Part shown: positions 12,033 through 13,980 of the stretch, piece by piece
How positions within the stretch are numbered: position 1 is the stretch's first letter
Layout of the letters: every line of letters begins with the position of its first letter
Origin: an uncultured virus (IMG/VR IMGVR_UViG_3300027739_000008)
Lineage: Duplodnaviria; Heunggongvirae; Uroviricota; Caudoviricetes
Length of the DNA: 64,000 nucleotides
Reading direction: 5' to 3' (one strand)
Virus record (IMG/VR): IMGVR_UViG_3300027739_000008
Program-made: the position numbers and the translations under genes
The notes under the pieces: generated by a model
What the model was told of the DNA's origin: nothing
Database searches by the model: none
What the model saw: only the letters and a program-made list of their open reading frames with translations

Positions 12033-12098
12033 TTCGCTTCCTCCGGTTTAGTTCGTGTCAGTATAGTCGCCGTAGGCGGGTATACTGCTAAAGAATCC

Positions 12099-12161
12099 AT
12101 CTAACATTGAGTTGACCTGCAACCGGCTTTTGCGGTTGTCAGGTCGAACTCGTTGTTATGT
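12099..12161 (-). repeat. attC site E
   Basis: ACATAAC-AAC-GAGTT[C]GACCTG[A]CAACCG...CGGTTG-CAGGTC-AACTC-AAT-GTTAGAT. Confidence 0.9.
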
Positions 12162-12164
12162 TTC

Positions 12165-12422
12165 TTACATTTCCGGCTTACTGATCTTGCCGTCGACACC
12201 AATAAAATACTTACCATCGATGGTGTTTATCCATCCGATGTAACCGCCCGTCGGCACATTGTAAAAGCCGATCTCCTGAACTACTGCTACCTCTGGCATT
12301 TTCTGCCCTCCATATAAACCATGGATAACCGCAAGTTCAGCGGCCATCTCAAGGTAATTATCCCGAACTACTTTCGGGAGCTTAACAAACTCTGTTGGCG
12401 GTATATATGTCACTTTGCCCAA
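12165..12422 (-). CDS. Cassette E gene 2, hypothetical
   Basis: 85 aa; stop 3 nt before attC E; GAGG RBS. Confidence 0.65.
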   Translation of the reverse strand: MGKVTYIPPTEFVKLPKVVRDNYLEMAAELAVIHGLYGGQKMPEVAVVQEIGFYNVPTGGYIGWINTIDGKYFIGVDGKISKPEM

Positions 12423-12658
12423 CCTCGCGGAACGAATCCTGCTTCTATATATTCTTGAGGATTAGCATGAAAGGCTTGCGCACGCGGAATAGAGCCATCT
12501 TTATTCCGCGTATTTCCGGGCAATAAAAAAGCGTTTTTGTCATCCCAACACAAAAAAAACCGGCGCCTTCCTTCATTGTCTGGTTTTTCGTTTTCATCAA
12601 ACCATTCAAGAAAACGGTTTGTAATTCCATCGTTCTCTATTAGTTCAAGCTGGCTCAT
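12410..12658 (-). CDS. Cassette E gene 1, hypothetical
   Basis: 82 aa; GGAGGAG RBS after leader hairpin. Confidence 0.7.
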   Translation of the reverse strand: MSQLELIENDGITNRFLEWFDENEKPDNEGRRRFFLCWDDKNAFLLPGNTRNKDGSIPRAQAFHANPQEYIEAGFVPRGWAK

Positions 12659-12715
12659 TTCTCCTCCCGTGGTTCATCCATGTAGTCGCTACTGCGGGTA
12701 CATGGTGAAGCATCG

Positions 12716-12778
12716 ACATAACATGCTGATAACCTGCGAGGGTTATTTGCCCGAGTCAGGTTGATTGGCTTGTTCGGT
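12716..12778 (-). repeat. attC site D (degenerate)
   Basis: ACCGAAC-AAGCCAAT[C]AACCTG[A]CTCGGG...CCCTCG-CAGGTT-ATCAGCAT-GTTATGT. Confidence 0.75.
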
Positions 12779-12931
12779 GTTTTTGGCACCTTGTTTAAAC
12801 AAGTTATACCAAACAAAAGCGCATCCAAAATCGTGATCCCAGTGGCAATCACGCGCCGGACACTTTGCGCAGTCGGTTTCATCTATTACGCCAGCCGCTA
12901 TTTTTACCTCGATACGATTAGGAACTTCCAT
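12743..12931 (-). CDS. Cassette D gene, Cys-rich hypothetical (62 aa)
   Basis: GGGAGG RBS before ATG 12931; CAKCPARDC...C; reads into attC D. Confidence 0.65.
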   Translation of the reverse strand: MEVPNRIEVKIAAGVIDETDCAKCPARDCHWDHDFGCAFVWYNLFKQGAKNTEQANQPDSGK

Positions 12932-13006
12932 CTTCTTCCTCCCTGTAATCTGTGCCAAAAACTTGGCGCGTTGTCGGTGTAACGCAGTTACGCGGCTAAA
13001 GCGTCC

Positions 13007-13066
13007 ATCCAACATTGGTTTAACTTGCAACGGTACTCAGTTGTCAAGTTGATCCAGTTGCTAGGA
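13007..13066 (-). repeat. attC site C (R'' box mutated AAC>AGC)
   Basis: TCCTAGC-AACT-GGAT[C]AACTTG[A]CAAC...GTTG-CAAGTT-AAACC-AAT-GTTGGAT. Confidence 0.8.
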
Positions 13067-13070
13067 ACTC

Positions 13071-13238
13071 TTAATAAGGCAACGATATAATCGTATAACC
13101 TTCATCGGTGGCGATTTGGAAAAATCCAAAATCAAAACGCGAACCTTTAATGAACCGCAGGTGATCAGATTCGATAACGCGCATTTCCTTGCCGTACTGA
13201 CCATCATCAGGAACCCACTTAACTACGATTGTTTTCAC
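13071..13238 (-). CDS. Cassette C gene, hypothetical (55 aa, not in ORF track)
   Basis: GTG start after AAGGAGAAAGAGG; MKTIVVKWVPDDGQYGKEMRVIESDH...SLPY; fills cassette exactly. Confidence 0.7.
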   Translation of the reverse strand: MKTIVVKWVPDDGQYGKEMRVIESDHLRFIKGSRFDFGFFQIATDEGYTIISLPY

Positions 13239-13299
13239 CCTCTTTCTCCTTTCGCGGATTGTCCGCGTATTGGCGCAGCCGATATGCGGCTGTCCGTCG

Positions 13300-13358
13300 T
13301 CCTAACATTAAGTTGAGCCGCGAGCTATTCGCGAGTCGGCTCGAACTTGTTGTTCGAC
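13300..13358 (-). repeat. attC site B
   Basis: GTCGAAC-AAC-AAGTT[C]GAGCCG[A]CTCGCG...CGGCTC-AACTT-AAT-GTTAGGA. Confidence 0.88.
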
Positions 13359-13534
13359 GCCGCCCGAAGCCCCCGAATAAAACCAGCATAAAAAAACGCG
13401 CTTGCATCGCGAGTACAGTCAACGCCGTCTGTAATAAGTAAAAAAGTTTGTTCATCGTCCGTGAAATGACAGTTAGATTTCATGTAACGATTCAACGACG
13501 CTAGAACCTGTTTATGCCTGTTTATCCTTTTCAT
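13325..13534 (-). CDS. Cassette B gene, hypothetical (69 aa)
   Basis: AAGGAG RBS; reads into attC B. Confidence 0.65.
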   Translation of the reverse strand: MKRINRHKQVLASLNRYMKSNCHFTDDEQTFLLITDGVDCTRDASAFFYAGFIRGLRAASNNKFEPTRE

Positions 13535-13601
13535 TTCGTTTACTCCTTTCGGGCGGTTTAGTTGACCGTCCGCATGACGCAGTTATGCGGCGCGTCAATC
13601 C

Positions 13602-13659
13602 GTCGAACATTTGCTTAACTCGCGAGTTACCGCGAGTCGAGTTGAAGCAGTTGTTAGGC
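13602..13659 (-). repeat. attC site A
   Basis: GCCTAAC-AACT-GCTT[C]AACTCG[A]CTCGCG...CGAGTT-AAGC-AAAT-GTTCGAC. Confidence 0.9.
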
Positions 13660-13923
13660 TTCCTTCTTTTCAAACAAATGGAACACGAGCTGCCCGCCCT
13701 CAATCTGAAACGTCCCGATAAACTCCGAAGCGTCACAAACGCACGGGTGCCCTGTTCCGTGAACAATAAGCGTTCGTTCTGCTTTTTGTTCTTCGGTATC
13801 AACCAACGCCCAAATGCATGGCGTTCCATACTGTACCTGCACGGAAAGAATCGCTGCCGTTCGCGGCATAAACACTTTCTGCTCATCGGTGATTTCGATT
13901 GGGAACTTCCAAACGCTCTTCAT
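13654..13923 (-). CDS. Cassette A gene, conserved phage hypothetical (89 aa)
   Basis: WKFP...ILSVQ.Q...CIWALVD...GTGH...IGTFQ...VFHLFE pattern seen in many phages; stop in R'' box. Confidence 0.8.
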   Translation of the reverse strand: MKSVWKFPIEITDEQKVFMPRTAAILSVQVQYGTPCIWALVDTEEQKAERTLIVHGTGHPCVCDASEFIGTFQIEGGQLVFHLFEKKEA

Positions 13924-13980
13924 AATTTCTCCTTTTGCAACGTGTCGGTATAAGCGCTTGCGGTTATACCGTAGTTGTCA

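What the first reader, a model, noticed from the sequence alone, without database searches (positions are those of the whole stretch)
12035..13980. Shared hairpin leader at the 5' end of every cassette
Seen: all nine cassettes start with core-NGA, an outer stem, an internal loop, an inner hairpin, GA(C/T), the outer stem partner and then an RBS. Inner hairpins (minus strand): CGGTATAA..TTATACCG (A and 52261-52307), CCGCATAAC-TGC-GTCATGCGG (B), CCGCATAT..ATACGCGG (C), CCGCGTAACTGCGTTACAC (D and solo 28330-28379), CCATGTA..TACATGG (E), CAGTATA..TATACTG (F), CCGCATAAAT..ATTTACACGG (52610-52673). Arms covary although the genes are unrelated. Established: typical cassettes have very short unstructured 5' regions. 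Inference: an undescribed RNA or ssDNA motif, possibly a processing/translation signal, a phage protein binding site or a relic of how these cassettes are made.
Basis: partly seen in the sequence, partly recalled or inferred. Interest (0 to 1): 0.8.

Follow-up and report, generated by a model that had tools for sequence, protein, structure and literature searches.

The report
Second hairpin beside phage attC sites
Each swappable gene cassette in these phages starts with a conserved folded stretch that looks like a second, single-stranded-DNA part of the recombination site rather than an RNA leader, which would add a new piece to how integron cassettes are built.

Summary
All nine cassettes begin, directly after the 7-base core GTTRRRY, with a covarying two-tier hairpin. 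The window is two related myovirus genomes carrying integrase-less attC arrays (CALINs), a kind already published for phages, including Tetrasphaera phage TJE1 (PMC9892861).

The same hairpin heads 31 of 45 non-redundant cassette starts in viral contigs, and three in TJE1. It matches no Rfam family.

The reading changes. Four results point to the bottom DNA strand, the strand on which attC folds:
- Stem mismatches are 50 A·C against 5 G·T on the sense strand.
- C(GNA)G triloops number 21 on the bottom strand and 0 on the sense strand.
- The helix sits at a fixed offset from the core but a variable one from the ribosome-binding site.
- Its upper stem repeats the R' core plus "NGA".

Treponemataceae chromosomal cassettes carry a simpler hairpin at the same place with the same loop bias. 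So "typical cassettes are unstructured" fails for this attC family.

Best reading (about 0.55): an accessory single-stranded-DNA part of the recombination site, an R-box mimic. Function is inferred, not shown. I found no description of it in print. Earlier notes of this scan cover phage attC arrays, but not this hairpin.

The parts
13922..13987 (-). Leader A: core GTTAGGC, two-tier hairpin and Shine-Dalgarno stretch; first cassette of array 1 (gene 13654-13923, DUF7352)
   Evidence: R1 hit of 55.3 bits; sequence; Pfam
13546..13608 (-). Leader B (core GTTCGAC); gene 13325-13534
   Evidence: R1 hit of 43.7 bits. The bottom strand folds as a near-continuous hairpin. An identical leader lies in a Treponemataceae genome (L173).
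13239..13306 (-). Leader C (core GTTAGGA); gene 13071-13238
   Evidence: R1 hit of 57 bits. Bottom-strand MFE is -28.9 against -19.7 on the top strand.
12951..13013 (-). Leader D (core GTTGGAT); gene 12743-12931
   Evidence: R1 hit of 43.6 bits
12654..12722 (-). Leader E (core GTTATGT); two-gene cassette 12165-12658
   Evidence: R1 hit of 48.1 bits; fold
12035..12105 (-). Leader F (core GTTAGAT); gene 11844-12032
   Evidence: R1 hit of 45.8 bits; fold
52255..52314 (-). Leader G (core GTTATGC), array 2; gene 52028-52231
   Evidence: R1 hit of 47.5 bits
52601..52667 (-). Leader H, array 2; gene 52336-52596 (DUF551). No attC or GTT core in front. The upstream ORF 52643-53113 runs into it.
   Evidence: R1 hit of 46.8 bits
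28324..28386 (-). Leader I (core GTTAGCT), solo cassette; gene 28032-28322
   Evidence: R1 hit of 52.9 bits
13602..13659 (-). attC of cassette A (R'' GCCTAAC to R' GTTCGAC). Its R'' is the exact complement of cassette A's own start core.
   Evidence: read
13300..13358 (-). attC of cassette B (R'' GTCGAAC, the complement of B's start core)
   Evidence: read
13007..13066 (-). attC of cassette C
   Evidence: read
12716..12778 (-). attC of cassette D
   Evidence: read; fold
12099..12161 (-). attC of cassette E (R'' ACATAAC, the complement of E's start core)
   Evidence: read; fold
11788..11849 (-). Terminal attC of array 1 (R'' ATCTAAC, the complement of F's start core). No leader follows it.
52308..52371 (-). 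attC of cassette H (R'' GCCCAAC)
   Evidence: read; fold
51959..52016 (-). Terminal attC of array 2 (R'' GCATAAC, the complement of G's start core). No leader follows it.
   Evidence: read
13988..14012 (-). Array-initial short palindrome just 5' of the first core of array 1
   Evidence: The same kind of site stands before first cassettes in 13 other loci listed.
28387..28410 (-). Array-initial palindrome with an inverted GTTRRRY pair, before solo cassette I
28000..28037 (-). Truncated attC of solo cassette I. R'' AGCTAAC is the complement of I's start core. The 3' half is missing.
   Evidence: read

Best explanation
The element is a roughly 50-base imperfect hairpin. It starts at base 8 of the cassette, directly after the 7-base R' core (G|TTRRRY) at which integron cassettes are joined, and it travels with the cassette.

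It is best read as a structure of single-stranded DNA on the bottom strand. That is the strand on which attC sites fold and are cut by integron integrases. It is not best read as an mRNA leader.

Its upper stem (P2, 9 bp) copies the R box. The 3' arm plus the following GA(Y) repeats the R' core plus NGA(Y), and the 5' arm supplies the partner. The top is closed by loops that are very stable in DNA (C-GNA-G) on the bottom strand.

Most likely it is an accessory part of the recombination site. Either it offers the host's integron integrase a second R-box-like duplex, or it stacks on, stabilises and insulates the folded attC next to the cleavage point. Either would help cassettes be excised from and captured into phage arrays that have no integrase or attI of their own.

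Shown here: the structure, its strand bias, its anchoring to the core, the R-box repeat, and its spread. Inferred: that the integrase binds it and that it affects recombination.
For: (1) Position. The helix begins at a fixed offset from the core in 70 of 71 non-redundant leaders. The distance from its end to the first Shine-Dalgarno-like tetramer runs from 0 to 26 nt in 70 leaders and is 83 in one. In one cassette (L014 2517-3121) an 11-of-12 sigma-70-like promoter lies between the hairpin and the gene.

(2) Strand bias in P2. Non-Watson-Crick cells on the sense strand are 50 A·C against 5 G·T in 71 leaders (p 2e-10). On the unfitted MAFFT alignment the count is 27 against 2. The bias holds after clustering at 70% (31 against 4) and 60% (15 against 1).

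(3) Folding energy. The bottom strand folds better than the sense strand in 35 of 37 leaders with RNA parameters (-19.5 against -15.4 kcal/mol) and in 32 of 37 with DNA parameters. This is beyond what composition gives: the real difference exceeds that of shuffles in 32-33 of 37.

(4) Loops. C(GNA)G triloops at the apex number 21 of 71 on the bottom strand and 0 on the sense strand. A test that needs no folding gives 23 against 5. d(GNA) and GCGNAGC loops are reported as extraordinarily stable in DNA (PMC3201870, PMC13037366; abstracts only).

(5) Positive control. The attC sites of the same loci show the same two biases. G·T pairs are 59 on the bottom against 17 on the top. GNA/GNNA apex loops are 11 against 0.

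(6) R-box repeat. The profile of columns 1-11 (core plus NGAY) matches columns 41-51 (P2 3' arm plus GAY) with a score of 6.52. The other 49 offsets score 3.65 or less. Per-sequence matches are 5.9 of 11 against about 2.1 at neighbouring offsets.

(7) Host side. One-tier hairpins at the same offset in bacterial cassettes show the same loop bias: GNA 18 against 0 and GNNA 9 against 0. All four Treponemataceae genomes that hold two-tier leaders encode an integron integrase above NCBIfam's cut-off.

(8) Published assay. TJE1 attC sites of this family are recombined by IntI1 as bottom strands (PMC9892861, section 3.4 read). TJE1 carries three leaders that were not in the training set.

(9) Other signals excluded. 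The leaders hold no sigma-70-like promoter and no consistent terminator, and match no Rfam family.
Against: There is no experiment, and neither binding nor any effect on recombination is shown.

The sense strand also folds well (z about -3.1 to -3.3). It would be present in any read-through mRNA just before the ribosome-binding site. In 26 of 71 leaders an SD-like tetramer starts right at the end of the helix.

The outermost pair (columns 8-59) shows the opposite bias, 15 G·T against 2 A·C on the sense strand. This pair is weak (29 of 71 cells are neither paired nor a transition mismatch), and T59 may belong to a TAAGGAGG-type ribosome site.

One-tier bacterial hairpins show no wobble bias (8 against 8).

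Base composition explains part of the energy difference: -1.83 of -4.11 kcal/mol with RNA parameters. With DNA parameters the attC control shows no energy difference.

Of 45 non-redundant attC-downstream sequences in viral loci, 14 have no leader. Some of these are terminal sites, but several are working-looking cassettes, so the hairpin is not essential to a cassette.

Compensatory changes in DNA palindromes can arise by template switching without selection (recalled knowledge).

The phages have no integrase: PF00589 was found in 0 of 5 records, and no integrase family among the 56 window ORFs scanned.
Confidence: 0.55

Rival explanations
1. An mRNA 5' stem-loop. In a polycistronic transcript it would insulate the ribosome-binding site from the attC hairpin. 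Or it would protect the downstream cistron after processing, or serve as a processing site.
For: It lies on the coding strand between the attC and the Shine-Dalgarno stretch of every cassette. The sense strand folds with z about -3.1 to -3.3. In 26 of 71 leaders the SD-like tetramer abuts the helix. Purines flanking P2 (R at column 19 of A3, A at column 50) are conserved. Pair 8-59 has 15 G·T on the sense strand. attC stem-loops in mRNA are known to hinder translation of downstream cassettes (PMC8876359, passages).
Against: An RNA on the sense strand should tolerate G·U, not A·C; the counts are 50 A·C against 5 G·T. Loops fit DNA triloops on the other strand, 21 against 0. The helix is fixed to the core and not to the SD. 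In L014 a strong promoter-like site lies downstream of the hairpin. Cassettes that lost the hairpin keep their SD and gene (L022 4119, L067 847).
Confidence: 0.2
2. A single-stranded-DNA site for a protein other than the integron integrase. Candidates are the phage's own SSB, Sak4 or Cas4-type recombination proteins, a primase, or an HUH-type enzyme acting at a fixed distance from a hairpin.
For: The same strand and loop evidence applies as for the best explanation. The phage encodes SSB, a Sak4-like annealing protein, Gam, a Cas4-domain exonuclease and a primase-helicase.
Against: The hairpin repeats the integrase's own R' core. It also occurs, in simple form, in chromosomal integron arrays far from any phage genes. 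No transposase or HUH family was hit among the 56 ORFs scanned.
Confidence: 0.1
3. No present function. It would be a by-product of how the sites recombine or arose, such as a duplicated R' core with a fold-back partner or a scar of cassette formation, kept palindromic by template switching.
For: The internal repeat of core plus NGA. There are deletion variants whose junctions lie in the two repeat copies (L067: GTTAT junction; L022 4119: between two CGGACA copies, note 2). Cassettes without it exist.
Against: It is kept in 31 of 45 non-redundant phage cassette starts, across 71 leaders that share under 85% identity. The same seven positions are nearly invariant. The strand and loop biases are directional, and neutral palindrome correction does not predict that.
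Confidence: 0.1
4. A promoter or a terminator of each cassette.
For: The position is intergenic. The 5' arm often reads ..TATAAC.
Against: No sigma-70-like site lies on the cassette strand in 11700-14200; the only site found is on the other strand, against a mean of 3.0 in shuffles. No stem with a T-run sits at the leaders. A promoter needs no complementary, covarying arms.
Confidence: 0.03

Closest known systems
Integron attC sites (folded bottom-strand recombination sites with R and L boxes)
   Same: A hairpin of single-stranded DNA with a bottom-strand bias. It uses the same loop repertoire as the attC sites of these loci. Its arms read like R''/R'. It moves with the cassette.
   Different: It has no L box, no unpaired central spacer and no second core pair. 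It lies outside the attC, on the cassette side of the crossover point. I did not find it in the descriptions of attC anatomy that I searched.
Clusters of attC sites lacking an integrase (CALINs) in virulent phages, e.g. Tetrasphaera phage TJE1 (Qi et al. 2023, PMC9892861)
   Same: The window's arrays are of this kind and of the same attC family. TJE1 itself carries three of the leaders.
   Different: The paper describes the attC sites and an upstream inverted GTTRRRY pair. It does not describe a hairpin at the cassette 5' end: 'hairpin', 'stem-loop' and 'leader' each occur 0 times in its text.
Accessory integrase-binding repeats DR1 and DR2 of attI1 (recalled from the literature; named in a figure legend of PMC9892861)
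   Same: Extra copies of a GTTA-type core motif lie beside the crossover site. This is the model for what an R-box mimic could do.
   Different: DR1 and DR2 are direct repeats in double-stranded attI on the integrase side. Here the copy is a self-paired hairpin on the cassette side.
Subterminal hairpins of IS200/IS605 elements and REP/RAYT systems (recalled)
   Same: A strand-specific DNA hairpin at a fixed distance from a cleavage site.
   Different: Those are recognised by HUH Y1 transposases. None was found among the ORFs scanned, and the core here is the integron GTTRRRY.
Promoter-early stem-loop (PeSL) modules between small genes of T4-type phages (recalled)
   Same: Short, conserved, structured intergenic modules flanking swappable small phage genes.
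   Different: PeSLs carry a promoter and are thought to shuffle by homologous recombination. Here no promoter is found, and the cassette ends show the integron-type complementarity of R'' with the cassette's own start core.
Rfam RF02912 AAC_AAD_leader (putative aminoglycoside riboswitch / attI site)
   Same: The only integron-linked Rfam family to appear in the scan.
   Different: 17.1 bits against a gathering score of 56, E 2.8, and on the opposite strand (13272-13335 +). It is not a match.

Membership tests
Integron gene cassette array without integrase (CALIN) | attC sites with inverted cores R'' RYYYAAC and R' GTTRRRY and an inner L''/L' pair, 57-64 nt long, in one orientation | tested here: met
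   Eight full sites were read and fold as hairpins. The same family is found in Treponemataceae integron arrays.
Integron gene cassette array without integrase (CALIN) | The cassette's first bases (TTRRRY after the G) are complementary to the R'' of the same cassette's attC, which is the signature of crossover at G|TT | tested here: met
   The match is 7 of 7 for A, B, E, F, G and I. For H it holds through the homologue with core GTTGGGC (L159). It is imperfect for C and D.
Integron gene cassette array without integrase (CALIN) | No integron integrase nearby | tested here: met
   No integrase family was hit among the 56 ORFs of the window that were scanned. PF00589 was found in 0 of 5 phage records, one of them rated complete.
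Integron gene cassette array without integrase (CALIN) | The sites are recombined by an integron integrase | not testable with these tools
   Shown by others for two TJE1 sites of this family with IntI1 (PMC9892861, section 3.4). Not shown for the window's sites.
attC site proper (is the leader hairpin itself an attC?) | Two boxes (R and L) separated by an unpaired spacer, with AAC at the 5' base and GTT at the 3' base of the hairpin | tested here: not met
   The AAC/GTT-like triplets sit next to the loop, not at the base. There is one box only.
Known RNA family (Rfam 15) | A match at or above a family's gathering score | tested here: not met
   Only two tRNAs in the whole window. In 11700-14200 the best E-values are 1.4 and 2.8.
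Intrinsic terminator | A G+C-rich stem followed by a T-run | tested here: not met
   None of the seven terminator-like sites in 11700-14200 is a leader hairpin. One (12986-12967) merely overlaps part of leader D.
Sigma-70-type promoter | -35 and -10 hexamers with 16-18 nt spacing | tested here: not met
   No site on the cassette strand in 11700-14200.
IS200/IS605-type end | An HUH Y1 transposase gene (TnpA) with subterminal hairpins | tested here: not met
   No transposase family among the 56 ORFs scanned against PHROGs. Not searched with a dedicated profile.

The most novel reading that the evidence does not exclude
The hairpin is a true second integrase-binding site, which would make a 'bipartite attC'. 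An R-box mimic carried by each cassette would raise excision and capture in arrays that lack an attI and an integrase. Phages of Treponemataceae-type hosts would thus keep and trade their own pool of cassettes through the host's integrase. The one-tier hairpin of chromosomal cassettes would be the ancestral form.
Probability: 0.3. Interest if true: 0.8.

Novelty: new variant of a known kind. Interest (0 to 1): 0.62.

Why it matters
The anatomy of attC sites (R and L boxes, extrahelical bases, spacer, variable loop) is taken as complete, and the cassette's 5' end as a short passive spacer. This is a conserved, strand-biased DNA hairpin that copies the R box and abuts the crossover point. It is present in most cassettes of a large phage-borne pool and, in simpler form, in chromosomal integrons. 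That suggests the recombination site of at least one attC family has an extra part.

It can be tested at once, because the cultured phage TJE1 carries it and a working recombination assay exists for its attC sites. If the hairpin helps capture or excision, it would explain how integrase-less phage arrays stay dynamic. It would also improve cassette-boundary prediction. If it proves to be an RNA element instead, it would be a widespread cassette-borne expression module.

Tried and rejected
- Rfam at gathering and at permissive thresholds gave no family.
- Promoter and terminator scans gave nothing at the leaders.
- Looking for relatives through the neighbouring lysozyme-like protein found only the same phage and one fragment, so I turned to DNA patterns of the attC.
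- A second MAFFT alignment without the core (A2) put the outer stem out of register. It was not used for a model.
- My first hairpin finder was crude. About ten of its 45 'two-tier' rows were chance hairpins in bacterial loci, so I replaced it with the curated 37 and the model-based 71.
- The shuffles were mononucleotide shuffles, not dinucleotide as the function name says. I do not rely on those z-scores.
- Five named Treponema genomes gave no model hit. Only 150 of the first-look candidates were scored per genome, so this is weak evidence of absence.
- A k-turn reading of the internal loop and a hairpin-promoter reading of the N4 type were considered from memory. I dropped them because there is no phage RNA polymerase and no consistent G·A tandem.
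- Sequencing runs: 24 runs hold parts of the region, but all are kept as assembled contigs, which cannot show RNA ends or strand. I laid no reads.
- The scan's earlier notes had nothing on this genome or sequence.
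Full report
**What the window is.** The 64-kb window holds two related genomes head to tail. Bases 40030-64000 match bases 1-24506 in 12 blocks of 78-94% identity. The first copy is identical, over the array, to an IMG/VR record of 47 kb. PHROGs names a myovirus: sheath, baseplate, portal, terminase, plus SSB, a Sak4-like annealing protein, Gam, a Cas4-domain exonuclease and a primase-helicase. 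No integrase appears among the 56 ORFs scanned.

**The cassette arrays.** They lie on the minus strand, between a lysozyme-like gene and a convergent gene.
- Copy 1 has six small cassettes (14012 down to 11788).
- Copy 2 has two different ones at the same spot (52667 down to 51959).
- The flanks are 91-94% identical.
- A ninth, solo cassette lies at 28410-28000.

**The cassettes are of the integron type.**
- Each is followed by a 57-64-nt imperfect palindrome with RYYYAAC and GTTRRRY ends and an inner L pair.
- The first seven bases of a cassette are the exact complement of the R'' of that same cassette's attC in A, B, E, F, G and I. H shows this through a homologue. That is the mark of crossover at G|TT.
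- Such integrase-less attC clusters in virulent phages are in print. TJE1 sites of this very family were recombined by IntI1 (PMC9892861; abstract and section 3.4 read).
- The arrays themselves are therefore not new. The question is the hairpin.

**The observation.**
- All nine leaders exist as described.
- On a plain MAFFT alignment of 37 non-redundant leaders (9 from the window, 28 from other contigs; A1), I wrote a structure of 14 pairs. Of its cells, 84.0% pair against 61.7% in shuffles (0 of 500).
- Cells changed on both sides number 123 against 42. Slid controls give 25-37% paired.
- Seven positions are nearly invariant: G9, A10, the C-G pair closing the inner stem, an A inside it, the A after it, and a C that pairs with G9.
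- The outer helix thus starts at base 8, with no gap after the core, and A10 is a bulge.
- A covariance model from A1 (R1) finds only the nine sites in the window with filters off.
- The ten cassette proteins are unrelated. Two have Pfam names, DUF7352 and DUF551.

**Spread.**
- A 20-base pattern of the attC 3' half hits 64 stretches in viral contigs.
- R1 gives 126 hits in them (overlapping loci repeat some). In a set of 42 sources it gives 115 hits, which reduce to 71 leaders under 85% identity.
- Of 45 non-redundant attC-downstream sequences in the window and viral loci, 31 carry a leader and 14 do not. The 14 include terminal attC sites, such as window 11794, and cassettes with short plain leaders.
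- Three of the cassettes without a leader look like deletions between the two copies of an internal repeat (L067, L022 4119, L018).
- TJE1, which was not in the training set, has three leaders at 2-69, 287-347 and 1069-1138.

**Bacterial genomes.**
- A stricter attC pattern hits 93 stretches, mostly Treponema chromosomes and MAGs.
- There the cassettes also start with core, NGA and Y (A10 in 55 of 70), followed by a simple G+C-rich hairpin. In 26 of 70 it is a perfect stem of 5 bp or more starting at position 10-13, against 1 at a control offset and 1.6 in shuffles. With 4 bp or more the count is 72 of 136.
- The two-tier form is rare in bacteria. It was found in 0 of 5 named Treponema genomes and in 4 of 151 genomes sampled from the family.
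- In those four it sits in phage-like stretches. L173 holds a leader identical to the window's B. It also sits once inside a chromosomal array of 19 attC sites (L174).
- All four genomes encode an integron integrase above NCBIfam's cut-off.
- The likely hosts are therefore Treponemataceae-like bacteria whose integrase could act on the phage sites. This is inference.

**Which strand, and DNA or RNA.** Four independent results point to the bottom strand as DNA.
- *Wobble bias.* In the inner stem the non-Watson-Crick cells on the sense strand are 50 A·C against 5 G·T (71 leaders). The count is 27 against 2 on the unfitted A1 and 31 against 4 after clustering at 70%. An A·C on one strand is a G·T wobble on the other.
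- *Folding energy.* The bottom strand folds better in 35 of 37 leaders with RNA parameters and 32 of 37 with DNA parameters. This is more than composition explains: real beats shuffled in 32-33 of 37.
- *Apex loops.* C(GNA)G triloops number 21 of 71 on the bottom strand and none on the sense strand. A pure sequence count gives 23 against 5. Such loops are reported as extraordinarily stable in DNA (PMC3201870 and PMC13037366, abstracts only).
- *Anchoring.* The helix is fixed to the core in 70 of 71 leaders, while the distance to the Shine-Dalgarno stretch varies from 0 to 26 nt, and is 83 in one. In one cassette an 11-of-12 promoter-like site lies between hairpin and gene.

The attC sites of the same loci, which are known to act as folded bottom strands (PMC2727003 and PMC3458562, abstracts in the listing), show the same biases. 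G·T pairs are 59 against 17 and GNA/GNNA loops 11 against 0. The one-tier bacterial hairpins show the loop bias (27 against 0) but no wobble bias (8 against 8).

**What the hairpin resembles.**
- The profile of the core and its flank (GTTRRRY-N-G-A-Y) recurs 40 columns on, as the 3' arm of the inner stem plus G-A-Y. The similarity is 6.52 there against 3.65 or less at 49 other offsets.
- The inner stem is thus a self-paired copy of the R box: 9 bp, then an unpaired A. In the circular cassette, the real R box plus the first two pairs of the outer helix also make 9 bp and then the bulged A10.
- Folded as bottom-strand DNA, attC and leader form two neighbouring hairpins.

**How it most likely works.**
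- I read the leader as an accessory, single-stranded-DNA part of the recombination site.
- It could be a second R-box-like target for the integrase, much as DR1 and DR2 flank attI1 (recalled). Or it could be a stable neighbour that stacks on and insulates the folded attC at the cleavage side.
- The structural facts are shown. Binding and any effect on recombination are inferred. Confidence is about 0.55.

**Against this reading.**
- The sense strand folds too, and often abuts the ribosome site.
- The outermost pair has the opposite wobble bias (15 against 2).
- Composition explains part of the energy gap.
- Cassettes can live without the hairpin.
- Palindromes can keep their symmetry by template switching (recalled).

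**Rivals.**
- An mRNA stabiliser or insulator (0.2).
- A site for another ssDNA-binding protein (0.1).
- A functionless scar (0.1).
- A promoter or terminator (0.03).

**Novelty.**
- None of five full-text searches led to a description of a hairpin at the cassette's 5' end.
- Nor did the texts I searched: PMC9892861, PMC3607928, PMC6557892 and PMC8876359.
- Earlier notes of this scan describe phage attC arrays with other features, but not this one.
- I rate it a new variant of a known kind: integron cassettes of one attC family with an extra, R-box-like DNA hairpin, elaborated in phages.

Noticed in passing
window 1-40030 and 40030-64000: The window is two related phage genomes joined head to tail, at 78-94% identity in 12 blocks. 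They differ in the cassette content of the same hot spot: six cassettes against two.
   Followed up: partly
window 13988-14012 and 28387-28410; also L031, L009, L050, L016, L087, L020, L012, L024, L026, L027, L019, L159: First cassettes of arrays are preceded not by a full attC but by a short palindrome. It is made of an inverted GTTRRRY/RYYYAAY pair 4-5 nt before the crossover core. This recalls the inverted GTTRRRY pair that Qi et al. noted upstream of the TJE1 array, and an attI-like simple site.
   Followed up: partly
L022 4119, L067 847, L018: Some cassettes lack the hairpin, and their 5' ends equal known leaders minus the stretch between the two copies of the core+NGA repeat. These look like deletions by recombination or slippage between the repeats.
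   Followed up: partly
window 52643-53113 (-): In copy 2 the lysozyme-like ORF is fused directly to leader H and ends at a stop codon inside the hairpin's 5' arm. The small 34-codon ORF and the array-initial site of copy 1 (14021-14125) are missing.
   Followed up: no
L161 (NC_019930) 1072-1467: The annotated start of TJE1 orf3 lies inside a leader hairpin (1069-1138). An ATG preceded by GGAGG near 1135 looks like the real start.
   Followed up: no
L014 2619-2647: A cassette carries its own near-consensus sigma-70-like promoter (TTGACA, 17 nt, TATAGT) between the leader hairpin and two small genes.
   Followed up: partly
L174 (G051:C2:1764500-1784400): This is a chromosomal array of 19 attC 3' halves in 20 kb. 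The nearest integron integrase hit lies about 100 kb away (1880840-1881784). Many of its attC 5' halves differ from the phage type and look longer.
   Followed up: no
window 47911-48600 (+): A GIY-YIG plus NUMOD3 homing-endonuclease-like ORF is present in copy 2 only. A tRNA-Met gene lies in each copy (7879-7950, 47709-47783).
   Followed up: no
window 11788-11794: The stop codon of the convergent plus-strand ORF 11131-11793 overlaps the R' core of the terminal attC.
   Followed up: no
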